From positions 25,856,001 through 25,920,000 of the forward strand of contig OZ076409.1 of the NCBI GenBank assembly GCA_964187785.1: a stretch of 64,000 nucleotides of DNA, in the 5' to 3' direction. Shown here piece by piece: positions 1,931-59,821 of the stretch. A model generated the notes under the pieces. That model searched no databases and was not told the origin of the DNA. It saw only the letters and a program-made list of their open reading frames with translations. The translations under genes and the position numbers were made by a program. Source of the stretch: Amphiscolops sp. MND2022 (lineage: Eukaryota). The stretch's first letter is position 1. Each line of letters opens with the position of its first letter.

Positions 1931-1942
1931 TGGCGCAGTCAG
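1931..1942 (+). promoter_or_regulatory. Primer binding site TGGCGCAGTCAG, tRNA-Ser-like
   Basis: TGG immediately after the LTR CA; resembles TGGCGCAGTC Ser-tRNA PBSs of insect gypsy-type elements. Confidence 0.75.
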
Positions 1943-1982
1943 CCGATTTTTAAACTGTGTAAACCCTTCATAACGAAAAATA

Positions 1983-7205: not shown

Positions 7206-7349
7206 AACAACCGGGTGTAATAAATTATATGTATATTACAGGAAACTTGTGGAACAGGCACAAAGGAACACCTCTACCCGAGAAGGTCCAAAAGACATCC
7301 GATTTCTTTCCCGAAGAGAATACACCCCCAGGACCATCAAGCCAGGACT

Positions 7350-7368
7350 GAGAAGAGAGAGGGGGAAA
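7350..7368 (+). promoter_or_regulatory. Polypurine tract
   Basis: GAGAAGAGAGAGGGGGAAA directly before the 3' LTR TG. Confidence 0.9.
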
Positions 7369-7582
7369 TGTTATATTCGGTTCATACCGACTTGACCTCT
7401 ACCGTAAATTCGGATACCAGCAGTCTAGAAGATAGGAGTTGTTTACCAACAAACTCTAAATAGACTCTCATACCATACATACATTTATACATTTGTTTTG
7501 GTTACAATACAGTGATACAAACATAGATCTATCTCTTTTAACAATTTCCTTTTCTCTTAGCCTATACCCTTAGAATAGAACA
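7369..7582 (+). repeat. 3' LTR of Mag-like element
   Basis: Direct repeat of 1717-1930. Confidence 0.95.
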
Positions 7583-11500: not shown

Positions 11501-14500
11501 CATTCACCCCATGATCATTTCACCCCAGTGAAAAAAAGTGGAACACGAAAAAACTTCGAAGATTCTCACCATATTTTTGTTGCTCGTTTGTATTTGTAGG
11601 GGAGAAAACTTGCATTAAAATCGGGGGTTTACCAAACAATTTAAGCTTGTTCCAGGGCTTCAAGTGTCAAAACAATTTTGTGTTCGGCGATAAAAAACAA
11701 GGTGTATCTGGGGATAAGGAACATGGTCCGAAACTTTTTCTTTTGAAACCATACCAGAAAGTAGTCAATGATAGCAATGATTGCACAATTATTGTTAACT
11801 ATTAAGATGATTATCAAGACTTGATAATCATTAGGATTCAATAACACTAAATGATTCCTAATAGATTTAGATAAAATGAGACGTTTAACAGAACGTAATG
11901 GCCGACAACAAAGTTTCTGGCGACGAAATGTCCGACAAAGAAATGTCTGGCGACGAAATTTCTGACGACGAAATTTTTGGCAATCTTATTTGACATTTAA
12001 ATAGCACAAAATTTTTCTGCGTTCCGTATTTTTTTGGTTCCCTAGTTTTTTCCGAGATTACAACGAGTGCTAGCGTAAATGACAAAAAACCGTAGTTGAC
12101 GGAGAAAAACAGAGTAAAAGAGCAACCGTGAGCTCTGTGACTTTGGGCAAAACGCTTTGAAATCACACTTTCAAGCCGGCCATCACTTTACCAATCAACT
12201 TCAAATGTGATACCTGTCGTGACTATTGGTCATAATGTCTTCTTCATGACCATCGTCACTAGACTGAGAATTCTCTGAATTTCTCCTAAAGTAGTCTTAT
12301 CGACTACTGGTTGCCATATTAAGCTTTGAGTTACCTTTCCAAGCGTTTTTAACGAATTTCGCTTCGGTGGTCCTGTTAAGTCCACTGGACCTCTGGTCCA
12401 CTTCTTCCCGAAACACTGGATTTTGGTTGGAAACCAAGTTTCTAATATCAGGCAAAACCTTTTCAGTGATTGCTGAATTAATGACATCAACCAGCTGAGA
12501 ATTAAGTTCTCTTCTCAGTTCATCAATTTTCTTTGTAATCTCAGAATTAACGAGCCTCATAGTCTCAACCGTCGATTCACTATTTTCGTTACTGTTTGAG
12601 TTTAAAAGTGACCTGAAATCCTCACTATTTTGCAGTGGGTCTCCTCTAGTCCCATCTGACCCTAGGTCTATTTCACCATTCCTATCAGAGTCATTTCCTA
12701 ATTCATTTCTTGGATATGATCCAAGCATTACGTCTAAGTTTTCTGTATCAGACATGATGTCTAATTGCCTAGAGCGTCTTTCCTTAGCTCTTTGCTTTCT
12801 AGTAGAAGGCATTGAAGAAATATTTGCTCAGGTAAGAGTATATTCGAGCTTGTATCAAATATCCCAACTTGAACTGAGTATTCAAACAATAACAGAACGA
12901 TATATCACTAAAGCAGTCTACTAAAGCGAAGGTTGACTTGTAGTCTCAAAATGATTAGAACACTGATGGTGATAGATAGCGGTGAGTTGTAGGTTTGTAA
13001 TCATCAATAATCGTCAAGATTCATCCCTTGGGACTAGTGGTCCCCGTATTTATAGTCCTTGCATCATGACATGCAGTAATATGTATAGTCATGTTACTAA
13101 AATTAGCAACTTACATACTAACGTCACTATGACGTAATGCTGTCAAACTAAATATAGACACAAGTACGGGCAAAAGGCCCTGGGAAGTTTACGTCACATG
13201 CTCCTGTAATTCTAAAATTAGCATCTCTACGTGTATTAGATCTAAAAATAGATAAAGAGGAAGGAAAATGGGGGGGAAGAGGCAGTACGCCTTTCATATT
13301 AATGACAGCAAGACTTGTGCTGAGCTCATACTTATATGCACCAATAGTATTGCACTTAGTTAAGATTAATAATCATCAAAGTAAATACACCGACAATAAG
13401 TGGACCGGCAGTCTAATATGACTTGCGTCGCCGCAAAGGCCAGCAAGTAAGTGAATAAGAAAGCTCGCATGTGATTGGCTAATTAAGGTTGCGGACTACG
13501 CGTTCGAATTGACCAACGCGGCGGACAATTCGAACGCGTTTCCTTTACCTTGCCAGTTATCTTGATTATTACAGCTACATTTCATCGATAATTAATACAT
13601 TCTGCACTACTGGTTTACATGTAGAATACACAAGCATAAAGACGTGAATATATATATAAAGTGTACATGCGCAGCGTATAAAATCAACAAACAGAATACA
13701 ATGAATGCTATATCTATGTAATGAATACTAAAATGCAATTGGTACTACAAGTCATACTAAGACCAGTGGACCTTCGGTCCGTAATAGCATAAATTCACAT
13801 TCTAATTGTTTGTGAAAAAAAATATAAGTCATGCACTAAGTTTCCCAGCAGATCAGCGGTATACGCGGCCTAAAGTGGCAGTGTTCCTGGCATATATCTC
13901 AGGTCGTTCTCATCCACCATCACTTGGTAGCTGTTTCCATCACAGGCGGCAGCCTGCGACACTCCCCGGGGGATGACAGTAAACGAGCCTGCAAGCATTC
14001 CTGCCTGAAAGGCGTTTCTTCGTCTGAGTCGGGTATTGTACGTCTCACCCACGAGGTGAGTCTGCTCCAAAAAATTGAAGGTGATCTCCTCTCGTATTGT
14101 TTCAAAAGACTTCCCACACACTATGCAGTCCCCAAAGGCGACTTGGTTCGGCAGCCCACACACCCCGCTGTTGCTTATGGCAATCCCAGTAATATGTGCG
14201 TTATTGGGCTGATAAGGGAAGTCATCATCTGACCACGGGTTGCCAGCGTTATTGACATTACACCCTTGCTCGTGCGGAGGTGGAGATAGTGGGGTGTCTG
14301 GAATTGGGCTAATTCTTGCACACTCAGCAATGGGTCGCTCCTGACTGAGTTTTCTGGAATAGCTAGGAGGGTGAATGCCCAATATCTGGTCTACAAGGTC
14401 GCTAGGGGGCTCTGTGTCCGTCTTTATTGACCTGCCATACAATTCCTCCAGTAGCGTTAAGTCACCATCGTCCGTGAATTCAGTGGTCATGGCACGTCCC

Positions 14501-17500
14501 GCTATCCCCAATGGTCGAGTGGACTGAGCCTCGCTGTAACAGGCGATCACTTCTATGTCGCTGTCATAACCTTTCTCGTCTGGGGCTTTTTGTGGATCGT
14601 CCACGTCCATGTCTTCTTCCTCTGAGGATAGATAAGACAGGCTAACCGAGGGGCTAATTAAATCTTCTACTGCAAATTGTAGAGACATATCTGTTTGAAA
14701 TCTCTTTAGTAAGATTTTCTTAGCAATTCTTGAGTATGAAAGTGAGCTGCTGATTTGTAGATTGAGATTCAGAAGAATGGCTACCTCGGGCTGATCGACC
14801 TTAGGTCAGAGGGTCGAAAATTCGCGGGAAAATAAGTTAGGGAAAGTTTCCCTGCAGCCCTCTTTGGTTTCTTAACATTTCCTTATTAAGCGGGTTCCCT
14901 TCTCAATTTCGTTTTGATGATCAGCCGCTTGTAAAGTTGATAAGTGCTTGAGTTTGATCTCAAGTGGTTGTATTAACTATTGAAGAGGTGACAATGGGTG
15001 ATGAGATTGTTTATCATCACTCATTAACACTAGTGAAGTGTCATCAAAGACCGTCGGTCTCAGCGGCTAGCAAAGACCAACTGTCCAATCAGAGCGTGTT
15101 GATAAATGAATAAATAATTCTGAATGGATTTGAATGAAAATGGTAAAATGGCATAAATGAATGAAATTAATAATGGTAATGATGGTAACTCTAATACTGG
15201 AACAAAGGAATGGAAAAGAAATGATTGCTGAATGTACATCACTGGCAGGTTCTGTAACACTGAAGATCATAGTGTATAGGTAATTAAAAGAGCTAATAGC
15301 TTTGGTAATAATAAATGACTTGTATTTTGCCACGACGTCCTTTGATGTAAATGAAATAAACGTAAAATACGATTGAGTAATAATCAGTCTTGAGAGTCAA
15401 GTTGAACGGTAAGAAGTAAAACTTGTAAGTGAGACTTTCAGTCTAATTGCCGTAAAGCATAGTAAACCAGTTTGCTAATTTTCACAGTTCACAGTACGAC
15501 TTTCAAATTGTTAATCCTTTGTTACATTTTGCATTCCCAATTCTAATTCTATCATTCAACAGCAGTTTTAGATCCCCAAATCTGCACAAAATATTTCCTG
15601 CTTGGATAGTTCTTCTAGTTACATCTTCTCGTTGGACTTCGTTTCCAGGACTACTGGTCTAATTGTCCCTAGATCGACGTAGAGTCCACTTTTGAGACTT
15701 CAATCTCGGTTCAGAATTCTTCATCTAGTTCACCCTTCTTGTTTCTCCTAGACAACATTGAACTATTCTTCTACGAGTATTCCAACTTGTTGACAGTACT
15801 CCCGACCAACGTTGTTCATTCCTCGAGATTCTACTAATTGGACTAGCAGTCTAATTGGCATAGGTCACCCTTCCAACAGTATCCGCCGTCTTACGACTTT
15901 GTTTCAGTCTGCTCATCCTTCGTGTCACTACTCCGATTCGGACAGACCAAGAATCCTTTCAGTCAGCCACGTCTTGCTCCACCAATTCTGTTCTCCATTT
16001 GGATAAACATCAGGTTGGTTCTTTCAACTTATTTTGTCAATTTTGAGCTTGATCAGGGCTTCCCATTGACTAGTTTTCACTTCCTCCATCGTGAAATATT
16101 CAACCATAGGTATGAACAAATAATAAGCTTGCTTTCGAAAGTCTTTCAAACGCGATAAGATGGATTTCTTTAACGGAAGTGGATCGCGAAAATTTATTTC
16201 TTTCCGTTTAGGCAAAGAAATGGACGGCCAACCAGAACAAAACGTCACCGAACAGATGGAAATTGACTCCCCAACAGTTGGACAGATGTTAGAGTCTGAG
16301 AACAGAGGGTCGCCAACGGACATAAGATCTATAGTTGAGCTGTCTTCCAATACGGACACTGAAAGCTGCGAAGCCTACATCAGGCGTACAGCTGAGTTGC
16401 TTGAGAGCGCTGAGCAAGATCCCGCTAGTCGTGTAACTGAGATTCCTGTTGAGGCAAAGTCAAGTGTGAGTGAGTTGGTTGCTGTTACTCCTGCGCTGAA
16501 TGAGATGATCCCCGAAGTCCAACTTACAGAAAGCGTCCCTAGAGTCGTCTTCCTGGACAAATCCGATTCGCAAGAAGGGACGAATAACACCACCATCGGA
16601 AGACAGGACCTTACGTCAGCAAGCAAAGTAGTTGACCAAAACCTGATGGCATCTAATCCTGAAGTCGGGGTTGTTGCTACTACCACTGAGGGCCCGTCTC
16701 AGCCTGCTAACATAGGGCTAGTGGAACAAGTCCTTGAGGAGCCGCAAGTTACTCCCAACCTTCAAGGAGCACAGGAAGGGAGACAAGAGATCGATGCTTC
16801 TGGGTCTGGTGATCCGCAAGTCAGCAAAGGGCCAATGGACTACCGGTACCAAACAGATGAAGACTCTTGCTTTGAGATGGAGACCGACACCGGATCTATG
16901 GCTAGGTCTACCTTGGGACAAGCGCTGTATTGCCCGGCAAAGGTTCGTGAGATTTCTTGCCGCGATGAATCTAGTCATGATTCAAACGTTGCCGATTTGC
17001 CACCCATCACTGATCCGCCACCGTTGTCAGGTACCAGCAGGGTTATCATCAAACAATGTTTCACAGAAACAAACCCTATCTGCCTTGATCCAGGACACCC
17101 TGTCATTGCGCTAAATCAGGATCAAATTACCAGCATCCTCAGAATTGTAGCAGACGAAAGTGCCCGAGCGTCTTTTGAGATGCTTAGCAGCGTAGTGGAA
17201 CGGGCGAGCCGATTGAACTTGGGTAGTCCTGCAAAAACTGCTTCTAGAAGGCGTGTTCCTTCGATGTCTGGCCATGATACTGACACAGATATCGGAAGTG
17301 ATTCCGTAGCTACCTACTCCACACGTAGAGGCGGCGCAAGTTCAGGCATGACCAGTGAGGCTGAATCCCAACCGGACTTCCAATCAAGTGTAGCGATGCC
17401 TGCTCCTCCGACCACTGCCAGCAATCAACAGGTAGACTTAGAGACTGACCCACATTCTTCTGCCGTGTCCAGCCCTGGGGCTCAAACCCTCGCCAACGTG

Positions 17501-20500
17501 AGACAGGAGGCTATTAACGAGCAACGCCAAGCCCGGAGACAAACTTCATCTCGCACTCGACCTAGGGGCCAAGCACGACCCAGGAGACGAATAGGCCGAG
17601 TGATGAAGGAGGAGTACTTCGAGACAATGCCTTGGACTAGAACTTTCGTGTCTGGGCCAGTTGATCCGAAATGGAACAAGCACAAGATCTACTGCCAGAT
17701 CTGCAAGTGCAATGTCTCAATCCGTGCAAAGGGTCCAAAGGAAATCCTGCGACATTTCGCGACGGAGCGTCATCTGCGTAAAGATCAGCGCTGGAGGTAT
17801 GAGTACCTCACTATTGAAGACCCCCTTACTAAGCGACGCAGATACCAAGTGAGAGGTCAAGATGGTAAAGTGCTCTCCAATTATCAACTCCAGCTGGAAC
17901 TGCCTCACTTCATTAACTGCGAACTAGTAGACATTGGGGAGAAGTTGCCATTCTACGACGAGGCAATGGCAGGCGTGGATTATATGGCATCGTCACCGCA
18001 AAATCGTGCCAGACTGCAAATTTCTGTGCTCGGCTGTTTCTTACCATTGTCTGGAGACGTCCAAGTCCTGCGTGGTCTCTGGCAACAAATTGGCATTGCA
18101 CTGAATCATCAGGCCATCACCAGTGATATCGACTGGAGCACAACTAGACTCTCAGTAAGTAGTCTCTTCACGTCTGATTGACTTCTAGTCCTATCCCTAT
18201 ATCATGCAAGCTTGACTAGATTTGATAAGTCACAGTCCATGATTTGAACAATAGTTCTTGAGTGGGCACATGTTCCGGTTCGTACTAATCTAAGGATGTG
18301 TTTAAGGTGTTGTTCCATCATCTATTCACACAAATCATTCCAATCATTGGCAATGATATCCTGACGTCCGGACAATTCTCTGTAGAATTCGAACCACAGG
18401 GGGTTTTCCTCTTGCTTCACGTCAGGTTCTGGAAAGCTGACAAATTGTGCCGGGTCTACTTACTGCGAACCGGCAGGGCCAGTGGACAAACATCAGCCGA
18501 AGTCAGCCTTGTGTCTACCCTTCTTGCAGCGATATCTGCTGAGGCTGATCTAGTGTGCTGCTCTGGGGCTACATATGGCCTAGTCCATCTGTTAGATCGG
18601 TCCCCACTCACCAGACATGGGGTACAGCGACCAACCACTTTCGACGAGATTGCGATCAAGAAGTTGATGCACAAAGACAGTTTCTCCGTGTTTGGACGCA
18701 TTGACTTCTTTTCAGTGTTACAGTACTTGGTTGTCTGCCTGAGTGGAAGTCTAGAGATGGAATGGACTCTCTTCACCCCTGAGTTGACTAAGGTAAGTCC
18801 CTCAGTCTATGTGCCTAGTACCGCCCGAAGCTTGGTCCGGTTTGACGTGGGGTTTTCAATTTAGGCCATTAAAACTTGCAAGCTTGACGTGTCCACAATC
18901 CCAAAATTGTGTCAGGAGTTGATGGCTAACTGGAAAACGGTGATCACCTACCTTTCCGAGCATTCACCTCAACAGCAAATGCAGGGAGTCAGAAACCAGG
19001 TTGGTCAATTTGCGACAGCTAGACTCATAGTCCCTAGTAGGGCAAATCTCGATGGCTTTCATTTCTTTTCAGCCCCAAAACTTCGAACGATCTGTCATTC
19101 ACGATGACTTCTTTCCTTGCAGACTTGAGTTCTTTGGGAAGCTTGTCCGCGATTGTTAGTACTCTAATTCTCCTTGCACATTGGTTTCCACATGGCTTCA
19201 TAATAATTCAATAGGATGCATCTGACTGGAACTGGGCTGCGCCTTGTCGAATTTCCAATCTAAGCTTGACTGTCCCAAAATAAATCCTCTTAGTCCTAGT
19301 TACGACAATGGGACCATAGGTCTTTTAAGGCATAATCTGGTTTCATGGTTGATTCACTGTTTCAGACACCACCAACTTCTCACTCAGTCTCAGTGGCCGG
19401 CGAGACAGGGCCTTCTACTCCTTCCGACAGCTTTGTCTCTACCTTCGCAAATTGGCTAAGCGCGTTGTTCTCCCCACTGCTTTGCCTGCTGAAGAAGACA
19501 TCGCGAGTATCTTGGACCTGGATACCACAACTGCTCTGGCCCTCAGCGTCCCCGTGTTTCTCAGCAGAACCAAATTTGGAGCGAAACTTGACCATGCCTG
19601 CAAGTTGAAAGCAGAGATTGAGCAGCATGAACAGAAAGGAGAGAAGACGTCAATCGACACATTGAAAGAGAAGGCTAAGGAAGAATTTGGACGTTTGGCC
19701 AGGAGTTACGTGACTCATCTGTTCAAAGAGACGCGTAGTCACTTCAATTTCACCACCAACATCGCCCAAGGTTTGGCCAGCTTTGACCTGGAAATCCTCT
19801 TGAAGTTGCCTCTCACTCTGGCCACGAAATGCTTCGGTCAGTTATTTACCGTCTTCCGTCTTCGTGGGTATTTTTCCCAAGAACAAGAGGCCCCAGCACA
19901 TGAAGAGTACCTGTCCTTCGTCGACGAGTTGCGCGTTAAATTTGCAGAGTTCGATCAACCTACACTATTGATCAAGGATACAATTGATTTCCTCATGGGC
20001 CAAACAACTCTGTCTACACGTCCATTGTTGTTTAGTTGTTTCAAGTTGGCTTGTCTCTGCATAGATGAGCCTTTTAGAGATCTCCCGACAGTCAAGTTCG
20101 GCTCTGTCAACACGGATGATCCTACCAGCAAGCTAGTGGACATAGTGCTGCCAGTGCAATCGTTCTTTAGCCAAGCTGTTAATCCAGTTGAGTCAGTGAC
20201 CAGCGATGCCTCGATCTCCGAATTCCTCGAAATGGAGTCTACTTTCGGTCGCACTGCGCTTGGCGACACGTATGACCCGTGGTCGGGTTTGGACAATTTC
20301 GGGAGGACTGAGATTTTGTCGAAGTTGGATCCTGAACGCAGACTTCCGAGCAAAGCTGGCAAGGTGGGCGCTTCCAGTACTGTCACAGTCCAGCAGTCCC
20401 CCAGTACCCTACAGTACCCTAAGAAGAATGTCCGTCCTACTCATCTCTTGTCAGATTCCGAATTGGTCCAGACTGCTAAGAGTCTGCGTCAGTGTGGCAG

Positions 20501-23500
20501 TAAAGACTAATTGTACACAATGTGCACATATATAAACTTTAAACTGTAAACTATTTATCCATATTTTCTTTTGTTCTGCCAATGTTGCTTGTGGCTTTAT
20601 TATTCGTCGCTAAGTCAGTTTGTCGGCACCTTATTAATTGTCATAAAGTGAAGTCAAAATAGTCCCAAGTAAAGAATACATGTCCTCAAGGGCAGAGAGA
20701 GAAAATTGGGACGTAGTAAATAAATGTTCTGACTAGTATCTGTATTCTTCTGAGTAATTAGGGGTAGGGTTCGGACGGAGGTTATATCTCCCTCCTCTAG
20801 GGCTTTCATTTTCTACAATCATTTCGTCGTTTTCGCTTTCTGATACTTCGGGCACGATAGTATCGCTCCCCCCTGATGAAGTTTCCTCACCAGGAATTGA
20901 GTCATCATCGGAATCGGGCATGATTCGCTCAGGAAGAGTTTCTTCCGTCTCGTCATGTCTAGTGGACTGTAGGTCCACATCGGTCAAGATCTGATCTGGC
21001 TGGTCGAAGTTAGTATCTTCGCCGCTCGTAATTTCTGGTCGTTCAGTTGATTGCTCGTAGGTCGGTTGACGTCGAGTGGACGCGAAGTCCTCAAAGTTCG
21101 TTTCCCACGTGATTACGTAGAGATCATCTTGGGGAATGACAATTTCATCGTCTGGCTGTAAATTCCCTTCTGGGCGAACGTCCTGTAAGTCTGTATTAGG
21201 CTCATATTTTCTGAGACGTATTCTGTGTAAAATTTGCGTTTTGTTGGAATTGAGTTTGCGAACTATATAATTATCGTTTGGTAAAACTTTTTCGATAATG
21301 TAAGGGCCAATCCAACGGAATTCGCGAAATGGGATTTTTGATCCTTGATGGTCAGCTATAGGTTGTAGAATGAAGCAATAATCATTGAGTTTCAAAGGTG
21401 CTGCTTTGGCCTTTCGGTCATAGTATTCTTTGTACTTCAAATAAGACTGCATAATATTTTTCTTTGTGGAATCAATCAAAACCTGTGATCTACGTTGGAA
21501 TTCCTCAGCAAAGTCCGTGGTGGGAAGGACCTGTGGGTTTGGGTTGAGCCCCAATTTATGGTCTAAAATATTGTACGGTATGCGGCCATGAAATATCCTT
21601 GATGGTTCGCAGCCCAACGTCGAGTGGTAGGACGTGTTGTAATTTAGGACTGCTAACGGTAAGTACTTGTGCCACTGACGTCTATACTCCCCTGAGGCCA
21701 TTTTGAGGTTAGTCTTAAGACTGGCATGAGTTCTTTCTAGCTTTCCTATGGTCTGTGGGTGTTTCGTCGTCGCACATTTAATTTGAATGCCCAAAATTTG
21801 CGCAATTTCAGCTACTAACTTTGATGTGAAGGCTGATCCTTTATCGGTAATCAAAGTCGTCGGCAAATACGTATGTTTGGTCATGATGTCGATAATGACC
21901 TTAGCGGTAATTGCAGCTGAAGCATCAGTAACTGGGTAAGCGAACAGGTAACGTGAAAAAACGTCCATGGCAGTAATAATATTTTCGTAGCCTCCGCTCG
22001 GCGGGAGGTTCGGTAATAGGTCTATTTGCATAGCGTCTTCTGGACCCAAAGTCCACTCTGGCAAATTGAGGAGCTCAGGATTTATTAACTCATTTGGAGT
22101 TCTTTTATCTTTTATGCAGGTTTCACATCCATTAACCCACTTGCGGACGATTTTCGCTATTCCAGGATAATAATATTTGGAACGAATTTCTTGTAACATT
22201 TTTGCAATGCCCGGATGGCGATTGGCCTTCCCGTGAAGGGATTCTAATAATTCAGTTACTAGGTGTTTTGGTAAGAGCACTTGGTTGTATTTGACAGTGC
22301 CAGTTTCGTCGTAATACTGCCTCGTGATGATTTCGTTTTGAATGGACAGTCGGTCTAGTTGGCGTAGGTAGTGCTGATATCTTGTATCTTGTATCAAGAT
22401 TGTTTCAGAATACTCTTCTTTTTGAATTTTGAGCTTAAGTTGTTGTAGTATAACGTCATTGTTTTGCTCTATAGTCACAGTGTTGGTATTGGCTAGTTTT
22501 TGACAAATGGGTAATTTTTGATAATTGCTGTGATGAGTGGTAAATTTTTGAAAAGAAATATCCGGTAATTGATTGGAAGGATTGTCTCGTGATTTTTTCT
22601 TCCTTTGCCAGATTTGCTCTTCTGTCTCATCTTCATCGTCAGTATAGAAGATTTGTTCTTCTTCTGTGATCCCTGCTGATTGGACGTGAAGTTCAATTGG
22701 CGTAGTGGGAATATCTTCTCTGATGCGAAGAATCAATTTCTCTTTTGGTGATATTTCTAGGCGTGATAAGTAGTCTGCGGCTGTGTTGTTTTTACCGGGA
22801 ATGTGTGCTATTGTGAAGTTAAATTGAATAACGTAATCACATGCGTTCCACAACGTTGGTGGTATTATCTTTGTTTGAAAAAAACGCGTGACGGATTTGT
22901 TATCGGTCAGTATAATTACCGGCTTTGGCGTCCCCCAAAAGATGTGTCCAAATTCCTTGAACGCAAAGAATATGGCTAAGAATTCTTTTGCATAAATGGA
23001 CATTTTCAATTGTGCGGGACTAAAGGTCTTTGACCCGTAAGCTACCGGAGCAAACGCCTTCCTCGTTGAAGTATATTTTTCTTGTGGATCATCCTCAATT
23101 AGGACTGCGTACCCAGCGGCCATAAAGCTGGCGTCGGTCATTAGGGCTATTTGCTTGTTCGGTAGCGGCTGTTTAAGTGCTAATTCACAACAGCGGTCAA
23201 GTGCTTTGTTGATATCGGTAAATTTCTCCAATAGGTCCGGTGTTACTAGGACTTTTTCATCATTCTTTAATAATTTGAAGAATGGTGTTAGTCTCTCTGA
23301 TAGCCTGGGAATATAGTTACGATAGTAGTTGAGAAATCCCAGGTATCTCTGCAGTGCTTTCTTTGATTTCGGGAATTTCGTGTTTTCTAGGAAATTTTGG
23401 ACTCGTGGTCGCTGTGGACGTACTCCGACTGGCGTGATCGTTCGACCCAAAAAGTCGATTTCTGTCGCTCCGAAATGACATTTGTGCATTGTGAGCTTCA

Positions 23501-26500
23501 ATCCCGCTTCGCGGATGCATTGGAAAGTGGCCCGCAGGTTCTTTATGAGTTGTTCGGCGTCATTTGCAGCAATGCCGATATCATCGACATATTGAGCACA
23601 TTGGTCAGCCTTAATAACTTTGTCAAGATATTCGCGCATAAAGCTAGAAAAGGCTGACAAAGCACGGCTGAGTCCTTGCGCCAACCTGCGGTAAGCAAAT
23701 GTCCTGCTGGCAAAATTGAACGCTAACATTTCAATGGACCGTTGGTCCGCCATCTGCAAGCAGTGGTATGCTTGCGAACAATCTAGTTTGCAAAATAGTT
23801 TTTTGCCTGCCATATGTTGGGCTGCATCGGTCAGTGTACTGACGGGGTGATTATTGTTAATGTAATCATCCGAAATGAGATTGTTAATCTTGCGAAGGTC
23901 GACCAGCAATCTCAATTTGCCATTGGGTTTCTTTTGGGCAAAGATCGGGCTAGCATATTTGGAAAATGGGAGAGTTGTTATGATCCCATATCGTTGTAAT
24001 AGCGCCAGTTCTACGAGGATATCTTCCTTGAGGTTAATAGGCGTTGGTAGACTTTGACTATAGGCCGGGGAATCGTCTTTTGGGGTTAATTTGACCTTGA
24101 ATTCCTCGTTCATGCCTATGTCGAATCGATGTCTAGCGAATATATCATGGAATTCGACTAGCAAATTTTCAATGCGTGTAATCTCATCTGATTGCAGCAT
24201 AGAATCTGTCCAATCGAAGTTGGCCAGGAATCGTCGTCTGGACTCAGGGTCATCCTGAGGATTGAGCTTCTCTAGCTCTTGTAGATTCAGGAGTTCGGTG
24301 AGAATGCGCTTTTGTATCGGCGTATGTTGTTGTGGATCCCCGGGGTCTTCCGGAGTGGGAAACCAATAGTTTTCCCGAAAATCTTCTGGCTTAGAAGATT
24401 TAATCAAGCTGCTAACGTAAAATGCAGCATTTTCAGGATTGTCCTGCAAAAGGTGCCATGTGGTCACCGGATCTATAGGTTTGACATACTTCATCTGTCC
24501 TGGGGTCATGACAGAGAAGTTGGCGACGTGAGAACCTCTCTTGAGAGTATAAGGGTGGTCGGTAAAGTTATTCAGGTGAATTTCAACTTGACCGGAGGTC
24601 AATGTGACCAGTGCCGCGCAAAAGGCGATGTCTCCATCTTCAGTGAGGGCATTGCTCGGTTGTAATATGCCAGTAACGGTGGTATCATCGTACATCTGGG
24701 AACTTAACGTGACTAGGTGTCTATCATTTGGTGGTATTGTGATGTCCTCCTGTGTACAGATAGGCTCCATGACGTTTGTGTACTTATGATCCGCTGTTTT
24801 CAATTGCATGGAGAAAAATGGGAAATTTAGAACTCCCTGTCTCATGTCCAGTATGGTGTTGTTTCGTTGCAAGAATGAAAGGCCAATCAACGGACTTGTT
24901 AGTTTCTCCATTACAATGAAAATTTCGTGAAATTCTATATCGCCGACCTCAAATTTAAGTTCGACGGTGCTCTTCGGAGTTTCCAGCTGCCCATTAGCTA
25001 CCATTATCTGGAAGTTGGGTGCTGGGCCCTCTTTGACAATAGACTGAGGGGCTAATAATCGGATTTTACGTAGATCAGCTTCGGGGATTGCACTAGATAG
25101 GGCACCCGTGTCTACAAGGCCGTCTAATGTAAGCTCGCCAAAATCCATGGGAAAATAGAGCATACGTCTTTTGTATTTGAGTCCGAGATTGGTTGTGAGC
25201 GGAACATAATCTGGCTCGCCATTTCTGGTAACCAGTGTGTTTACAAATCTTGCCTCGACGGCTGACGTCAGAGAGACTTGTGGTCCAAAAGAATTGAATT
25301 TGGTGTCTGGTTCTTCCTGTGTTGGTAGGACACAGGAATTGGTGTTTGCTTGCCAGGGGTCTACTAGAGCTATGGTCAAGGTATGGTTTAGAGCCCTGTC
25401 TGTCATGGGACAGTCGGGTTCAATTTCAGTTTGAGGTTTGTTAAAGTTTGCGTAAAATTGCAGCTCGTGTTGATTGTAGATTTGAGCGTCCCAGTAGGGG
25501 TCAATGCCGTAGTCGGGGTCAATGTAATAAGGGTTATAGTCAGGTATTAGAGGAAGGGATCGAATATAGTCCGTAGTCGAGGTAAGTCTGTCGGACCTGT
25601 GGTCCGAAGTGCAAAATTGAGTAGGAGTATTTCTCATTTGTTGCTGCCAGTCAGCCGATGAGGTTTTCTTTAGTGAAGAATAATATTCAATATAAAATAC
25701 GGTAGAAGGGTCAGAGATTATATACTGTCTAATTCGTAACTTTCCATTAAATTGGAGTCGTGGCAAAACTAGTTTTTTGAGTTTTTTAATATTGAGGTGG
25801 ATTGTTTATCCTTGGTCTCGTTTTGTCCAGGGGACGCTTCGTCTTGTTTGGCGTCCTCCAGTTTGAGGTTCTTGGGCTTGAGGTGGGCTCCGGCGCCTTT
25901 CCAACACCGTTCCGCCGGGTGATTTGTTTTGCCGCAAGTCGGGCATTTAGGATATTCTTTTTTAGTATCCTGTCCGTCGTTGCGCCTTTGTTCCTCCTTT
26001 CGTTTGAGTTTCCTGCAGTCGTCTTTGACGTGGCCAGGTTTTTTGCAATAGTTGCAAGTGATATTGGGATCAATGCCCGATGAAAGGAGGCCAGTGCCCG
26101 GTCGTGTTGCTGTAGGGGCAGTGGACATTGTAGGTACTGGAATGTCGTCACCTCCCTCAAGTCCATTAAGCTCAAGTTCACGTTCTAAATGAGTGACAAT
26201 TTCCTCGTACCATGCATTTTCAAGTCTTGCCATATTGACGGATCTTTTGAGTTTTGGGGGCAATTTGGCGTACAATAGGCTGTCTATCATAGCTTGAGCG
26301 TTCTCACCGAACGCTTTTTCTGCACCCTGATTCAATTCTTCAAGGAAATCGGGCAGTTTCATAGTGTTTGGGTCAAACACGAGTTTGTGCCATTTGTGTT
26401 TGGCAGTTGCTTGGGATTCTGGTTTGACGTATTTGCGTCTGAAGACTGCAAGTACATCTTCCAAGGTCTGCCTATTAGCGGTGCTGATGTTGCGGAAAGT

Positions 26501-29500
26501 TTGTAGGGCATTCTTCCTCAACAAAGAGTGGAAATGGTTGATTTTCATGGTCTCGGTCATTTCCGGTTGCATCTTTACCATAGTATGGAAAAGATCTTCG
26601 AAGAGTTCAAATTTCTCCGATTTGCCATCGAACGTCAATGTAGTAGTGCTGACAGGTCTTACCATCAGTGTCTGCGTTGATGATTTGTTGTTCATTCCGA
26701 CCAGCACATCTGCAAGACGCCTAATGGGGTCTGAACCATCGTTGACGTCTGTCTCCTGAACCGGAGGGACATTTTCTAAGGTTTGAATTCGTGGGGAATG
26801 GGAATTTTGTGTTTCTTCGCGGGAATGCATGGGCCGTCCAGTAAGGAATTCAGGAACCGTACGAGGGGTAGGTTTGGCTCCTGTCACCATGTCGTGACTA
26901 TTGGTCATAATGTCTTCTTCATGACCATCGTCACTAGACTGAGAATTCTCTGAATTTCTCCTAAAGTAGTCTTGTCGACTACTGGTTGCCATATTAAGCT
27001 TTGAGTTACCTTTCCAAGCGTTTTTAACGAATTTCGCTTCGGTGGTCCTGTTAAGTCCACTGGACCTCTGGTCCACTTCTTCCCGAAACACTGGATTTTG
27101 GTTGGAAACCAAGTTTCTAATATCAGGCAAAACCTTTTCAGTGATTGCTGAATTAATGACATCAACCAGCTGAGAATTAAGTTCTCTTCTCAGTTCATCA
27201 ATTTTCTTTGTAATCTCAGAATTAACGAGCCTCATAGTCTCAACCGTCGATTCACTATTTTCGTTACTGTTTGAGTTTAAAAGTGACCTGAAATCCTCAC
27301 TATTTTGCAGTGGGTCTCCTCTAGTCCCATCTGACCCTAGGTCTATTTCACCATTCCTATCAGAGTCATTTCCTAATTCATTTCTTGGATATGATCCAAG
27401 CATTACGTCTAAGTTTTCTGTATCAGACATGATGTCTAATTGCCTAGAGCGTCTTTCCTTAGCTCTTTGCTTTCTAGTAGAAGGCATTGAAGAAATATTT
27501 GCTCAGGTAAGAGTATATTCGAGCTTGTATCAAATATCCCAACTTGAACTGAGTATTCAAACAATAACAGAACGATATATCACTAAAGCAGTCTACTAAA
27601 GCGAAGGTTGACTTGTAGTCTCAAAATGATTAGAACACTGATGGTGATAGATAGCGGTGAGTTGTAGGTTTGTAATCATCAATAATCGTCAAGATTCATC
27701 CCTTGGGACTAGTGGTCCCCGTATTTATAGTCCTTGCATCATGACATGCAGTAATATGTATAGTCATGTTACTAAAATTAGCAACTTACATACTAACGTC
27801 ACTATGACGTAATGCTGTCAAACTAAATATAGACACAAGTACGGGCAAAAGGCCCTGGGAAGTTTACGTCACATGCTCCTGTAATTCTAAAATTAGCATC
27901 TCTACGTGTAATAGATCTAAAAATAGATAAAGAGGAAGGAAAATGGGGGGGAAGAGGCAGTACGCCTTTCATATTAATGACAGCAAGACTTGTGCTGAGC
28001 TCATACTTATATGCACCAATAGTATTGCACTTAGTTAAGATTAATAATCATCAAAGTAAATACACCGACAATAAGTGGACCGGCAGTCTAATATGACTTG
28101 CGTCGCCGCAAAGGCCAGCAAGTAAGTGAATAAGAAAGCTCGCATGTGATTGGCTAATTAAGGTTGCGGACTACGCGTTCGAATTGACCAACGCGGCGGA
28201 CAATTCGAACGCGTTTCCTTTACCTTGCCAGTTATCTTGATTATTACAGCTACATTTCATCGATAATTAATACATTCTGCACTACTGGTTTACATGTAGA
28301 ATACACAAGCATAAAGACGTGAATATATATATAAAGTGTACATGCGCAGCGTATAAAATCAACAAACAGAATACAATGAATGCTATATCTATGTAATGAA
28401 TACTAAAATGCAATTGGTACTACAAGTCATACTAAGACCAGTGGACCTTCGGTCCGTAATAGCATAAATTCACATTCTAATTGTTTGTGAAAAAAAATAT
28501 AAGTCATGCACTAAGTTTCCCAGCAGATCAGCGGTATACGCGGCCTAAAGTGGCAGTGTTCCTGGCATATATCTCAGGTCGTTCTCATCCACCATCACTT
28601 GGTAGCTGTTTCCATCACAGGCGGCAGCCTGCGACAATACCAATTTGAAAAACGAATGTTTTTATACGGCAAAAATGGGGAAACTGCCCTTCTTAAAAAA
28701 TGAGCATCGAATAACTATCAGTTTTGAGGAAAATTCAATCAAAACCAGCTCGCTACCACCGGAGGACACCTTAGGTTGAAAACAGTGCATACGATCTACC
28801 AACTGAGCTTGGCTGTTGATAATTTTTCAACTGTTGATAGTTTCAAACATTACAAAACAGACAAATTAACAGCGAAAACTCGGAATCCACATTTGTGCAA
28901 AACATTAGGCACTTGTGTTATGCACAATTTTTGACAATGAGATCGCCAATTAACTCCGAAGCATCAAATACAGCATGCCGACAAAAACGTTCCCATTTTT
29001 CGTAGAAAACGCAGCCTATAGCACTGGCTTTTTTAAAGACCAACGAAGTGACAGATTTTATCAGCTTGCATAGCTGAAGCTGTTGCTTCCACTAACTGCC
29101 ACACTAAGGTAACTTCTACTGCCACTTGGCATAGTGGTTAATTAGAATTTTTTGAGGTCTACCAAGCAGAAGGACATGGGTTCGAGTCGCGCCCTTGACA
29201 AATTTTTCGTGCATGTTATATTCGCACGATGACAACTATTTGAAGCAGTTCAAAGCAGCTATACGGGATGTTATAAATCGAAGAATGCCAGCTCACGGTG
29301 AAAACAAATTCTATGTTATGGGAACCTTCCTCGATCCTAACTATCAGCCCTTTCTTTTCAATGACGATCAAAAACAGTTTATAAAGTCTGATTTGATTGG
29401 TTTCGTTCAAGAAGACGCTGTTCAAGTGGCCGATTTTCCTCAAAAAAGAATTCATCCCGTTTTGAAAGAAAAATTTTCTCTCTCTGAAAAATTGAAGCTC

Positions 29501-32500
29501 CAAGCTGTAATGGAAGAGCCTAAACAATGCACTACGGCAAGCAGAATATCGCCTATTGAAAAAGAAATCAATGATTACATGGACATAGGTATTGAAGTTT
29601 CTACAGATGTTTGGGCGTATTGGCGAGAGCACAGAACTAAATATCATATTCTTTCACCGGCTGCTCGGAAGACTTTTTGCATGAAGGCAACCAATACTGC
29701 CAGTGAACGGTTGAACTCAGCAGCTGGTCGAGTCGTGTCCAGCAGAAGAGAAAGATTGTCTGCCGAACACATTGAGCAACTGGTTCTTCTGTCACAGTCT
29801 GCCGCCTGCGATGGCAACAGCTACCAGATTGTGCCTAATGAGATGAGTGACATGCCGTTGCCTGCTGGGGTGTTACCCCTATAGATGAAAGAGACTACAG
29901 GTCCGCACAAAACTACCCCGTTAAATGTGATGTCAGTATAAACTATTTTAAATAGCATTTATATTATTTTACGGACCATCGGTCCACCCGTCTAAAGTAG
30001 ACAGTCTGTCAAACTAATATCCTAGAACTGATTATTCATATCAATTAGCTGTGTATTCATTTGTATTTACGTGCTTAACCATGTAAACCAAATTACCAGT
30101 GAAGTTGATTAAAAATATCAATTTGTAAAGCAACCAAAAGATAGTAAGGAAACGCGTTCGAATTACATCACCGTCAGTATAATCGACGCGTGGTCCTTTC
30201 TGTTATTAACCAATCAGCTTTCAGAAATTTTTTCAATCGCCTGTGCTATACTGTGCTTATTCTCCTAGTTGCCAATAATCGGTCGGACCACCAGTCCGTC
30301 ACATGTAAAATACGTGTAATGTTCATGCTGAAAATCATCTGTGCAAACAATGGCTTAACTAAAGTGGTCCGCATGTATTTAGTCTTGAAAGGCGTGCCGC
30401 CATTCCCCCCCCCCACCCACTGAGCAATTTTACTCTACTTCTAAGAAATGCTGCTAAATATAAATATGACGTAGCAGTGACGTTATCCTTTGAGGGCTTT
30501 TGCCCAGATTTGTTGCTATTTTTAGATACGTGACGCTGATAAAATTTGCTTGTCATGCTTTTCCTACTATATATTGGGAGGCCGTAAGTCTTCTAAAAAC
30601 AATCTTACGCTATTCAACTCAATTCAATTACACTCTGTTCAATGACAATCTCTGATGCAAATTTGGACTTGAAGTCCGCAAATACCTTGTTTGACTTGAT
30701 TCAATATATCCCGTTTTGTTTCTGTTGCATTCATTTCAGTTGGAGTAACTTAGTACAAACAATATAGTGTTATTTGAAAGGAATCTTCTAAATGCCTTCC
30801 ACAAGAAAGCAGAAAGCAAGGGAAAAGCGATCAAGGCAATCAGACGTAATGTCTGATCTAGAAAACATGAATGTCATGTTGGGAAATTACCAAGAAAACC
30901 TATCAGACGTTGATCTGAATGAAAATGTAGAAATGGACTCAAGGTCCAACGGTACAAGGACCGACATGGTCAGGAATTGTGAGGATTTTAGAACATTATT
31001 AGCATCTGAAAATAGAAATAGGTGCGAAATACCTACAGAAGCTAATAGACTCATTTCTGAGGAGATAGCTTGCCAAATGAATAGGAAAATGGATGAACTG
31101 AGAAGGAATTTAGACACGCAAATTACAGAGTCTATTAACTCTGCAATTCATGATTCAATCCTTCCTTCTATCCAAAATTCGTTATCAGGACAAAATAGCG
31201 GGTTAGGTACAAATGTGGATTCAAGGTCCAGTAGATTAAGCAGGAACACCGAAGGTAAAAAGCACCAAAGTGCTTGGGGAGATACCCAATGTAGAGTACA
31301 ATCAAATTCAAACAATCATCCCCAATCTAGAGATAACTCATTAAGCTCATTAGACTGTAGGGATGATCGCGACATGGTGACAGGAGCCATCCCTACCCCT
31401 CGTATGGTTCCTGAGTTTCTTACTGGACGACCCACACAATCTCGAGATAACCCGCAAAGCCAAGACCCTATAGATCCTCAGTCTCCGACCATGTCACCTC
31501 AAGACCAGGAGACCATTGGTCACAATTCGGCTATAGACACTCTCACACGCCTTGCTGATGTTCTAAAGGCATGACCAATAAGCAAACCCCACAAACACTC
31601 ATGGTACGACCCGTCAGTACAACTAAACTGACCTTTGACGGGAAATCTAAAAAAATTCGAACTTTTCGAAGACCTTTTTCATACAATGATAAAAATGCAA
31701 CCACAAATGACTGAAACAATGAAAATTCACCACTTTTATTCCCTCTTACGTAAAAATGCACAAACCTTTCGTAATATCAACTCTGCCAATAGGCAGACAC
31801 TAGAAGACGTACTCGCGGTCTTCCGACGAAAGTACGTCAAGCCGGAAACTCAAGCCACTGCCAAACACAAATGGCATAAATTAGTGTTCGACCCCAACAC
31901 TATGAAACTTCCAGATTTTCTCGAAGAACTCAACCAGGGAGCAGAAAAAGCGTTTGACGAAAATGCCCAAGCAATGATAGACAGCCTTTTATACGCCAAA
32001 CTGCCCCCCAAACTCAAGCGATCGGTAAGTATGGCGCGACTTGAGAACGCCTCATATGAAGAGATCGTCACCCATCTGGAACGCGAACTAGAACTCAACG
32101 GACTTGAGGGAGGTGACGACATTACTGTACCTACAATGTCTACTGCCCCTACAGCGACACGACCGGGAACTGGCCTCCTTTCTTCCGGCATTGATCCCAA
32201 TGTCACCTGCAATTACTGCAAAAAACCTGGCCACGTCAAAGACGAATGCCGAAAACTCAAAAGAAAGGAGGAACAACGACGCAATGACGGGCAGGATACT
32301 AAAAAAGAATATCCCAAATGCCCAATTTGCGACAAAACAAACCACCCGGCGGAACGATGTTGGAAAGGCGCTGGAGCCCACCTCAAGCCCAAAAACCTCA
32401 AGATGGAAGACGAAAAACAAGACAACGCGTCTCTCAGCCAATCCGAAACCAATAACAAACAAACTACTTTTATCTTAAAAAAACCCAAAAAACTAGATTT

Positions 32501-35500
32501 GCCACGACTCCAATTTGATACAAAATTACGCGTCCGACAATATATAATTTCTGATCCCTCTACTGTATTCTACACTGAATATTATTCACCACTCAAGGGC
32601 AACTCATCAACTGACTGGCAGCAGCAAATGAGAATCACCCCTACTCAATTTTATACTTCGGACCTTAAGTCCATCGGACTTGACTCGACTTCACACTCCA
32701 TCCGTCCTCTTCCAGAAATACCAGACTATAACCCCTATTAAACAGATCCGGACTACGGCATTGACCCCTACTGGGACGTCCATCTCTACAATCAACACCA
32801 TTTATCTTTCTGTACCGACTTCACCAAACCCCAAATAAACATTGAACCTGATTGTCCGGCAACCGATGGTGCCCTCAACAGCGTTCTAAAGAACGCATCA
32901 GTCGATGTCTGGCAAACTAAACCCAATCCCTGCACTCTACCGGCACAGCACACCCAGGGACACCAATTTGACAGCTTGGGACCACAGGTCTCTTTGACTA
33001 CAGCAGTCGAAGCACGATTTACGAACACACTGGTCACCAGACAAGGTGAACCAGACTACGTACCCCTGACAACCAATCTCGGACTCGAATACAAAAGACG
33101 AATGCTCTATTTTCCAATGGATTTCGGCGAACTTACATTAGATGGCCTTGTAGACACGGGAGCACTATCTAGCGCAATCCCTGAAGCTGATCTACGTAAA
33201 ATCCGATTATTAGCCCCTCGGTCAATTGTCAAAGAGGGCCCTGCACCTAAATTCCAAATAATGGTAGCCAATGGGCAATTAGAAACTCCAAAGAGCACAG
33301 TCGAATTGAAATTTGAAGTCGGTGATATTGAATTTCACGAAATCTTTATTGTCATGGAAAAATTGACAAGCCCATTGCTTGGCCTTTCGTTTTTACAACG
33401 AAACAATACCATACTGGACATGCGTCAGGGAGTCTTAAACTTCCCATTCTTCTCCATGCAATTGAAAACGGCGGATCACAAGTACACTAATGACATGGAA
33501 CCTATCTGTACTCAGGAGGATATTACAATTCCCCCTAATGATAGACAAATAGTGACATTGGCATCCCAAATGTACGACGATACCACTGTAACCGGCATCC
33601 TCCAACCGAGCAATGCACTCACTGAGGATGGCGATGTCGCCTTTTGCGCGGCATTGGTCACACTGACCTCCGGTCAAGTGGAAATTCCGCTCAATAATTT
33701 CACTGACCACCCTTATACTCTCAAGAGAGGTTCGCACATTGCCAATTTCTCTGTCATGACTCCAGGGCAGATGAAATACGTTAAACCCATTGACCCAGTG
33801 ACCACATGGCACCTCTTACAGGATCATCCTGAAAATGCGGCTTTCTATGTCAGCAGCTTGATTAAATCTTCTAAACCAGAAGATTTTAAAGAAAGTTATT
33901 GGTTCCCTACTCCAGAGGACCCTGGGGATCCACAACAACACACACCCATTCAAAAACGGATACTGAAGGAAATACTCAATCTTCAGGAACTTGAAAAACT
34001 GAATCCTCAGGAAGACCCTGAGTCCAGACGACAATTCTTGACCAACTTTGATTGGACTGACTCGACACTGCAACCACATGAAATTGCACGCATTGAGGAC
34101 TTACTTGTCGAATTCCACGACATATTTGCGAGACACCGCTTTGACATTGGCATGAACGAGGAATTCACGGTTAAACTTACGCCAAAAGACGATTCCCCGG
34201 CCTATAGCCAAAGCTTACCGACACCTATCAACCTCAAGGAAGACATCCTCGTTGAATTAGCCTCACTACAGCGCTATGGGATTATCACAACACTCCCATT
34301 CTCCAAATATGCCGGTCCCATTTTTGCCCAAAAGAAACCAAATGGTAAATTGCGACTATTAGTCGACCTTCGGAAAAAAACAACCTTATTTCAGATGACT
34401 AAATCAACAATAATCATCCTGTCAGTACGCTAAGTGATGCAGCTCAACACATGGCAGGCAAAAAACTCTTTTGCAAACTAGATTGCTCACAGGCATATCA
34501 TTGCCTGCCAATGGCGGACCAACGGTCCATAAAGATGTTGGCGTTCAATTTCGCTAGCAGAACTTTTGCCTACCGCCGATTAGCTCAAGGTCTCAGCCGT
34601 GCTTTGTCAGCCTTTTCTAGCTTTATGCGAGAATACCTCGACAAAGTTATCAAGGCCGATCAATGCGGGCAATACGTCGATGACATTGGCATTGCCGCCA
34701 ATGATGCAGAACAACTCATGAAAAACCTCCGGGCCACTTTCCAATGCATTAGACATGCAGGCCTGAAGCTCACTATGCACAAGTGCCATTTCGGAGCAAC
34801 GGAAATCGATTTCCTGGGCCGAACGATCACTCCGGACGGCGTACGTCCACAACGACCACGAGTCCAAAATTTTCTGGAAAAAAAAACAAAATTCCCGAAA
34901 TCAAAGAAGGCATTACAGCGCTACCTGGGTTTCTTAAATTATTATAGAAATTACATTCCTAGATTATCCGAAAAACTAACACCATTTTTCAAATTGCTCA
35001 CTAAAGGCGAGAAGGTCATGGTAACCCCGGACCTATTGGACAAAATCTCTGAAATTAACAAAGCTCTTGATCGATGTTGTGAACTAGCACTTAAACAACC
35101 TTTGCCCAACAAACAAATCGCCCTGATGACTGATGCGAGCTTTACGGCGGCCGGATATGCAGTTCTCATCGAGGACGATCCGCTTGAGAAATATACATCA
35201 ACAAGGAAAGCATACGCACCGGTGGCCTACGGCTCCAAGACCTTCAGTCCCGCACAACTCAAGATGTCCATATACGCCAAAGAGTTCCTAGCAATTTTCT
35301 TCGCCTTCAAAGAAAGCGGACACATTTTCTGGGGAACACCAAAACCGGTCATTATACTAACAGACAATAAGTCGGTCACACGATTTTTTCAAACAAAAAT
35401 TATTCCACCATCCTTATGGAACGCTTGTGACTATGTTATACAATTTAATTTCACTATTGCCCACATTCCTGGCAAGAATAACACAGCCGCGGTCTACATG

Positions 35501-59650: not shown

Positions 59651-59821
59651 TCTCATCCAATACTCCAAACTTTATGTTTTTCAACTGTTTATTTATAGTT
59701 TGTTTCTTTTCTGATGCGTTCTATTTATCTTTGTATTTATTGGCAAACGCAGCAGCGGAATACTGGGAGTATAAAACCAGTAATGAGAAGATGAGAGAAT
59801 AGTTTTGACTGAAAGTTGTTT

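What the first reader, a model, noticed from the sequence alone, without database searches (positions are those of the whole stretch)
12387..28455. Palindrome GACY-N3-RGTC (often GGACY-N3-RGTCC) saturates element A, including coding regions
Exact matches by eye (position of GAC): 12388, 12658, 12935, 13032, 13403, 13769 (repeated in the other LTR at +14675), 14797, 15049, 15433, 15649, 15841, 18180, 19312, 20274, 20965, 22043, 23400, 23737, 24241, 24590, 25275, 25594. That is at least 28 sites (22 independent). A simple independence model at ~40% GC predicts fewer than one per 16 kb. The 3-nt spacer is free while half-sites and spacing are fixed, the signature of a dimeric protein binding site rather than a tandem repeat. 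Sites are densest in the LTRs and the intergenic region, and two lie in antisense-gene introns.
Basis: seen in the sequence. Interest (0 to 1): 0.88.

Follow-up and report, generated by a model that had tools for sequence, protein, structure and literature searches.

The report
Retrotransposon clades carry private DNA motifs
A family of animal retrotransposons is studded from end to end, even inside its protein genes, with a short DNA palindrome that differs from clade to clade, most likely the binding site of a zinc-finger protein the element itself encodes, much like the self-regulating systems of plant transposons.

Summary
GACY-N3-RGTC occurs 66 times in the window, all inside two sister Ty3/Gypsy elements (A, B), against about 1 expected per element and 0 in the other 31.8 kb; only the 3-nt spacer is enriched. 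In pol it is written in by codon choice (9 sites vs 0.84 after synonymous shuffling), and synonymous positions in the core differ between relatives in 4 of 121 comparisons vs 47% elsewhere. All these elements carry a conserved five-exon antisense gene (1280 aa, BED-like zinc finger, possibly a dead hAT transposase; origin only weakly supported). Of 34 elements with that gene, 14 carry this motif, 14 carry GCCG-N4-CGGC instead, 2 carry a CGYAT direct repeat, and 4 show none. Hairpin tests were mostly negative. Best reading (0.6): the element's own antisense protein binds these sites in DNA and regulates its clade, like plant VANC/TnpA systems. Binding is not shown: the motif tracks every element gene equally, one finger helix is identical across two motif classes, and fold and RNA searches gave nothing.

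The parts
12215..28636 (-). Element A: intact Ty3/Gypsy LTR retrotransposon, 16.4 kb, TG...CA ends, 5-bp target duplication ATACC; 32 motif sites
26890..28636 (-). 5' LTR of A (1747 bp, 99.9% identical to the 3' LTR); 7 motif sites; holds the first ~600 bp of gag
12215..13961 (-). 3' LTR of A; sites at 12221, 12388, 12658, 12935, 13032, 13403, 13769
25769..27487 (-). gag (DUF1759, zinc knuckle); starts inside the LTR; sites 26896, 27063, 27333
20733..25805 (-). pol (protease, weak dUTPase-like, RT, RNase H, integrase); 9 sites in all three frames: 20965, 22043, 23018, 23400, 23737, 24241, 24590, 25275, 25594
16160..18154 (+). Antisense gene exon 1: long low-complexity N-terminus, then C2H2 BED-like zinc finger region (17588-18154)
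18307..18792 (+). Antisense gene exon 2 (pattern recalls an RNase H-like hAT core without the acidic catalytic residues; recalled, not tested)
18865..18999 (+). Antisense gene exon 3
19073..19154 (+). Antisense gene exon 4
19366..20510 (+). Antisense gene exon 5 (helical); the five exons give one open frame of 1280 aa; intron sites 18180, 19022, 19312, exon site 20274
14689..16159 (.). Intergenic region between the divergent antisense gene and ORF X; sites 14797, 15049, 15433, 15649, 15841
13870..14688 (-). ORF X: conserved sense ORF without a Pfam match, with a CxxC pair, running into the 3' LTR; no sites
29790..45579 (+). Element B: sister element, same layout, LTRs 97.3% identical, duplication TCTTC, gag-pol split over several frames; 34 sites
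51577..64000 (-). Element D (continues past the window): distant relative with the same layout and a divergent antisense gene; 0 GACY-N3-RGTC sites
52576..52623 (+). Element D motif cluster in the LTR: CGYAT-N5-CGYAT direct repeats at 52576 and 52609
54921..55042 (+). Element D motif cluster in the intergenic region: sites at 54921, 54954, 54987, 55028

Best explanation
The motif is a double-stranded DNA binding site that this retrotransposon clade keeps along its whole length, and the binder is the element's own antisense gene product, a 1280-aa zinc-finger protein that probably descends from a hAT-type transposase and has lost catalysis. As a dimer or oligomer it would coat integrated copies of its own clade every few hundred bases and set their chromatin or transcription state, most likely relieving host silencing (self-repression for copy control is the alternative sign). 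Sister clades have changed both protein and motif. SHOWN: the motif, its clade specificity, selection on its core, the conserved spliceable gene. INFERRED: binding, dimer, hAT origin, any effect on transcription.
For: Motif in 14 of 14 clade-1 elements (16-29 sites) vs 0-3 in 14 clade-2 elements, which carry 14-24 GCC-N5-CGG-type sites (expected about 3); 2 of 2 distant elements carry CGYAT-N5-CGYAT (6 and 7, expected 0.05 or less). Synonymous shuffling: pol 9 vs 0.84, gag 3 vs 0.41. Synonymous third positions differ in 4 of 121 core, 38 of 94 spacer, 5456 of 11477 outside comparisons within clade 1, and in 67 of 92 core comparisons with clade 2. Non-coding LTR and intergenic sites of A and B mostly lie in unalignable DNA. 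A non-palindromic direct-repeat motif in the third clade cannot be a hairpin. The gene has GT-AG introns, no internal stop, dN/dS 0.03-0.16 against the nearest relative and invariant W-x3-F, C-x2-C, H-x5-H. Clade 1 is one branch on the finger (support 98) and exon-5 (100) trees with stems of 0.32 and 0.65, while RT does not resolve it (34). Two Atlas searches point to hAT families (DUF659 0.76; Dimer_Tnp_hAT, FAM200 0.83), leads only. Two Gypsy elements without the gene show no motif above noise. Precedent: VANC and TnpA (PMC5735166; 10.64898/2026.08.24.746577).
Against: No binding or expression data. The motif class maps with the least possible 3 changes on RT, integrase, finger and exon-5 trees alike, so it follows the whole element, not this gene; only three motif classes, so about two changes. 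The finger stretch NVSIYSKGAREILRHY is identical in E049 (motif 1) and E091/E093 (motif 2). 4 of 34 elements with the gene show none of the three motifs; they are truncated or broken, but one is a full 13.9-kb unit. The conservation test is much weaker for the clade-2 motif (31 of 158 core, 23 of 136 spacer, 4441 of 14065 outside). Complementarity is slightly in excess at the positions next to the core (85 vs 65.5 and 87 vs 68.9, p about 0.003). hAT origin is not confirmed by Pfam cut-offs, PDB sequence search, profile comparison or fold search. Comparisons among related elements are not independent.
Confidence: 0.6

Rival explanations
1. The sites recruit host transcription or chromatin factors; different clades have adopted different host factors, and the antisense gene does something else.
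For: Sites are densest in LTR and intergenic DNA, the usual place for host-factor sites; the TGACC-N3-GGTCA form in one subclade resembles an everted nuclear-receptor element (recalled, not tested); finger helix identical across two motif classes.
Against: Sites cover coding regions and are over-dispersed at 250-400 bp (A: 11 gaps vs 3.6, none of 500 random sets reached it); random genome stretches show no excess (15 sites in 200 kb vs 12, 14, 10 at N4-N6); motifs 1 and 2 share outer flanks (G at -8, G at -1), as if one binder had drifted.
Confidence: 0.17
2. Another element protein (the unusual Gag N-terminus, ORF X or integrase) binds the sites on the cDNA or the integrated copy, for packaging, nuclear import or self-recognition.
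For: All element genes are co-inherited with the motif; ORF X is conserved, has a CxxC pair and differs strongly between clades (27-30% identity); even spacing would suit coating a whole cDNA.
Against: ORF X has no known domain; RT and integrase change little between clades; the only finger-type domain is in the antisense gene.
Confidence: 0.13
3. The palindromes are short stem-loops in the genomic RNA or single-stranded cDNA (dispersed packaging or processing signals).
For: Each site can form a 4-bp stem with a 3- or 4-nt loop; slight excess of complementarity at -1/+11 and 3/7.
Against: C.A mismatch is common on the sense strand (C-G 43, T-A 35, C-A 34, T-G 23; odds ratio 1.9, p 0.08); wobble-type variants are not favoured over their mirror images (14 vs 22, 4 vs 10, 15 vs 12); compensatory double changes are 3-10 against 137 intact (the GTC..GAC class, 27, is the outer half-site pattern); no pairing beyond two flank positions; the third clade's motif is a direct repeat.
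Confidence: 0.07
4. Chance, codon or amino-acid bias, or relics of tandem duplication.
For: Amino acids contribute a little: synonymous-shuffle means are 0.8-1.5 in clade 1 vs 0.15-0.5 in clade 2.
Against: 20- to 40-fold over shuffles, one spacer only, all three frames, sites in introns and LTRs, one unrelated 20-bp tandem repeat in A+B.
Confidence: 0.01

Closest known systems
VANDAL/VANC anti-silencing system of Arabidopsis Mutator-like DNA transposons (PMC5735166, passages read)
   Same: Element-encoded accessory gene with introns; short motif at high density in the own family and rare elsewhere; related families have different motifs. Element D's clusters of short repeats in LTR and intergenic DNA look most like it.
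   Different: Here a class I LTR retrotransposon of an animal; motif 1 is a spaced palindrome, dispersed, not in tandem repeats, and kept inside gag and pol by codon choice, whereas VANC motifs are same-orientation arrays mainly in non-coding DNA; homology to VANC not seen; binding and demethylation not tested.
Spm/CACTA TnpA and transposase-derived regulators (bioRxiv 10.64898/2026.08.24.746577, abstract and passages read)
   Same: Family-specific 8-10-bp motifs whose clustering mirrors the element tree; regulator derived from a transposase that lost catalysis.
   Different: Those are DNA transposons using their own transposase lineage in plants; here the putative transposase relic sits in a retrotransposon; the whole words 'retrotransposon' and 'LTR' have no occurrence in that paper's main text.
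Retand/Grande/RIRE2 plant Ty3/Gypsy elements with antisense ORFs between pol and 3' LTR (TRP28, PF04195) (PMC7264820, PMC11963269, passages read)
   Same: Same position and orientation of a conserved extra gene; predicted DNA binding; regulatory role proposed; family-specific repeats nearby.
   Different: No TRP28 match here; gene has five exons and a C2H2 finger; in the passages read no cognate dispersed motif is described.
ZBED / hAT-transposase-derived transcription factors (recalled; PMC10027918 seen as search listing only)
   Same: BED-like finger followed by a hAT-like region without clear catalytic residues.
   Different: Those are single host genes; this one travels in a high-copy retrotransposon; homology only at lead level.

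Membership tests
Ty3/Gypsy LTR retrotransposon | LTRs with TG...CA ends and target duplication | tested here: met
   1747-bp LTRs, ATACC duplication
Ty3/Gypsy LTR retrotransposon | gag, then protease-RT-RNase H-integrase order | tested here: met
   Pfam matches in that order
VANC/TnpA-type sequence-specific self-regulation | Short motif dense in own family, rare in other DNA | tested here: met
VANC/TnpA-type sequence-specific self-regulation | Related families carry different motifs | tested here: met
   three motif classes in 30 of 34 elements
VANC/TnpA-type sequence-specific self-regulation | Element-encoded protein binds the motif | not testable with these tools
   needs EMSA or ChIP
VANC/TnpA-type sequence-specific self-regulation | Protein relieves silencing or activates cognate copies | not testable with these tools
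   no RNA holder listed; no methylation data
VANC (strict) | [quoted passage not shown] | tested here: not met
   motif 1 is dispersed and in coding DNA; no tandem repeat holds it; only the third clade has clustered repeats
VANC (strict) | Host element is a Mutator-like DNA transposon | tested here: not met
   LTR retrotransposon
hAT-transposase-derived (ZBED-like) protein | BED-type zinc finger | tested here: inconclusive
   invariant W, F, C-x2-C, H-x5-H; Pfam only weak: zf-C2H2_ZN292 in 24 of 28, best E 1.4e-4; zf-BED in 1 of 40, E 0.71
hAT-transposase-derived (ZBED-like) protein | RNase H-like core and C-terminal hAT dimerisation region | tested here: inconclusive
   Atlas leads under 0.9; exon-5 model pLDDT 62 gave no clear match; exon 2 was not folded
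Active hAT transposase | Conserved DDE catalytic residues | tested here: inconclusive
   no conserved Asp at the expected strands in the exon-2 alignment; expected positions are recalled, not from an alignment to a known transposase
Retand-type antisense ORF | TRP28 (PF04195) domain | tested here: not met
   no such Pfam match

The most novel reading that the evidence does not exclude
An animal LTR retrotransposon lineage captured a DNA-transposon transposase, turned it into a private sequence-specific regulator, and rewrote its whole genome, including synonymous codons of gag and pol, to carry the cognate site; clades then diverged in protein and site, giving orthogonal self-recognition (anti-silencing) systems inside one genome.
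Probability: 0.45. Interest if true: 0.88.

Novelty: new variant of a known kind. Interest (0 to 1): 0.76.

Why it matters
Sequence-specific, element-encoded counter-silencing is documented for plant DNA transposons; eight literature searches here found no case in an animal retrotransposon. This family gives a candidate protein, exact sites, and natural specificity switches (two palindromes with different spacer, one direct repeat), so binding and swap tests are direct. It would also assign a function to the antisense extra genes of Gypsy elements, which reviews call unknown, and could explain how the family reached thousands of copies. Even if the binder is a host factor, near-invariant synonymous sites across a saturated pol gene are an unusual second code in a retroelement.

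Tried and rejected
No RNA holder was listed for the antisense gene, so splicing and expression are predicted only. Fold: the exon-5 model (pLDDT 62, pTM 0.45) had no Foldseek match at E 0.001 or better and a best VIA Z of 5.5 to unrelated helical chains; no model of the finger-plus-exon-2 part was obtained. PDB sequence searches with both profiles: 0. Profile comparison with the hAT fragment in the window: probability 0.2; no longer relatives of that fragment found. Metagenome scan: 196 pattern hits, 0 confirmed. Eight divergent homologues carried no names, so the range beyond this genome is open; three of them matched this genome at only 34-50% and may come from other species. Nucleosome-like 170-bp period: best period in 5 of 5 elements but not significant per element (p 0.09-0.82), and pol sites are shared. 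AACCGA excess in element C did not survive an order-2 Markov background. No genome-wide motif count was obtained; the background rests on 20 stretches of 10 kb. My guess that the host is an acoel is recalled and untested; searches on it gave nothing useful. Earlier scan notes: none found. One search was a script error, redone.
Full report
Observation. A pattern count gives 66 GACY-N3-RGTC sites in the window and 0-6 for every other spacer from N0 to N8. All 66 lie in two elements, 32 in A (12215-28636) and 34 in B (29790-45579); the other 31,788 bases hold none. With one LTR removed A has 25 sites and B 27, against dinucleotide-shuffle means of 0.74 and 0.66 (max 4 and 3 in 200). An unbiased scan of all gapped trimer pairs puts GAC-N5-GTC first in both. 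All 22 listed positions are right; three were missed; the GG...CC form is 7 of 25.

Anatomy. A and B are sister Ty3/Gypsy elements (79% DNA identity over gag-pol) with LTRs, TG...CA ends and 5-bp duplications. After pol comes an antisense gene of five exons with GT-AG introns that joins to 1280 codons without a stop, then an intergenic region and a sense ORF X. The host is an animal by a flanking transporter gene. A search with the finger region gave 7884 first-look candidates in the 1.07-Gb genome, 150 scored.

Selection on the motif. Synonymous shuffling that keeps protein and codon use leaves 0.84 sites in pol (9 seen) and 0.41 in gag (3 seen); the sites use all three frames. Across 9 clade-1 relatives, synonymous third positions differ from A in 4 of 121 comparisons in the core, 38 of 94 in the spacer and 5456 of 11477 elsewhere; against 11 clade-2 elements the same core positions differ in 67 of 92. 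RT synonymous distance to B, E035 and E037 is about 2. These comparisons share ancestry and the sites were chosen in A, so no p-value is claimed. In non-coding DNA, A and B each hold 3-5 sites per region though the regions barely align, and no tandem repeat carries them. The site is the core of a longer weak palindrome, with T at -12, G at -8, C at -6, T at -2 and G at -1 enriched over 143 non-homologous sites.

Background. Twenty 10-kb stretches at round coordinates hold 15 sites, against 12, 14 and 10 at N4, N5 and N6; 7 of the 15 are in two stretches that match this family's gag or pol.

Clade-specific motifs. I examined 34 elements that carry the antisense gene. Fourteen (A, B and 12 more, pol mostly 79% or more identical to A) have 16-29 motif-1 sites and 1-4 motif-2 sites. 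Fourteen (pol about 67%; two are near-identical copies) have 0-3 motif-1 sites and 14-24 sites of CCG-N5-GGC in either orientation, consensus GGCCG-N4-CGGCC, expected about 3 and specific to that spacer. Two distant ones, element D of this window and E068, have CGYAT-N5-CGYAT direct repeats in clusters (6 and 7, expected 0.05 or less), and a D-like LTR in another flank has 5. Four show none: one full unit and two fragments of a fourth clade and one decayed copy. Two Gypsy elements without the gene show no motif above shuffled noise. The conservation test for motif 2 is weak.

DNA site or RNA hairpin. Among 135 non-homologous sites the Y/R pair is C-G 43, T-A 35, C-A 34, T-G 23; wobble variants are not favoured and compensatory pairs are at background; pairing does not extend beyond two flank positions, but the positions next to the core show a small excess of complementarity. 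With the direct-repeat motif of the third clade, this favours protein binding to double-stranded DNA.

The candidate binder. The antisense gene is under purifying selection and has an invariant W-x3-F, C-x2-C, H-x5-H finger. Pfam gives only weak C2H2 matches. Two Atlas searches independently list hAT families, below the 0.9 level; the exon-2 pattern resembles a hAT core without its aspartates, which I recall rather than test. PDB, profile and fold searches did not confirm this. On quick trees of 22 elements the motif classes need the minimum 3 changes on RT, integrase, finger and exon 5 alike; clade 1 is strongly supported only on the antisense-gene trees, where its stem is long; finger positions 29, 37 and 58 separate motif 1 from motif 2, but the following helix is identical in E049 and E091. 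This is co-inheritance, not shown co-evolution.

Mechanism. I commit at 0.6 to the element's own protein binding the sites on integrated copies; activation or anti-silencing is likelier than self-repression by analogy only. Rivals: host factors 0.17, another element protein 0.13, RNA stem-loops 0.07, chance 0.01.

Comparison. It works like VANC (PMC5735166, passages) and TnpA (10.64898/2026.08.24.746577, abstract and passages) but is neither: a retrotransposon, an animal host, dispersed palindromes inside coding DNA. In layout it matches plant Retand-type antisense ORFs of unknown role (PMC7264820, PMC11963269, passages). Passages of PMC13547354 and PMC12859917 named no retrotransposon case. 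Searches listed no report of this family or motif; the library lacks most subscription papers, Repbase and Dfam were not available, and no supplements were read, so prior annotation of the family is not excluded.

Verdict. Real, selected, clade-specific motif; new variant of a known kind; interest 0.76.

Noticed in passing
window 26890-27487 and 13870-13961: Both LTR ends are coding: gag starts about 600 bp inside the LTR and reads through the LTR end and primer site, and ORF X reads into the 3' LTR; the same holds in B and in the relatives fetched.
   Followed up: partly
G000:C7:62496718-62526630: Three copies of element A in tandem at 14,673-bp spacing; 34 of 150 listed finger matches are 99-100% identical to A, so the family is young.
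   Followed up: no
window 13498-13539 and 28173-28214: Longer palindrome in the LTR of A with 14-bp arms; a similar word is seen in B's LTR near 30150, and A and B share a 19-nt perfect match in otherwise unalignable LTR DNA.
   Followed up: no
window 29156-29789: hAT transposase C-terminal fragment (PF05699, E 9e-12) into which element B inserted.
   Followed up: partly
window 8759-9637 and 46025-46654: Pieces of an excitatory amino acid transporter-like gene flank A and B, so both probably lie in one intron.
   Followed up: partly
window 1714-7582: Unrelated Gypsy element C with 217-bp LTRs, no antisense gene and no motif above noise.
   Followed up: partly
L051, L054, L058, L063, L067: GGG-N1/N2-CCC is in excess in 5 of 20 random stretches (21 in L051 against 1.3 expected); may be another repeat's motif.
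   Followed up: no
elements A, B, E039, E049, E105: Sites are spaced more evenly than random, with many gaps of 250-400 bp; a 170-bp period is suggested but not significant.
   Followed up: partly
L114 and L095: A 13.9-kb unit of a fourth clade has the antisense gene but no motif above shuffled noise.
   Followed up: yes
window 78-630: Fragment 70% alike to the LTR of element D, inverted.
   Followed up: no
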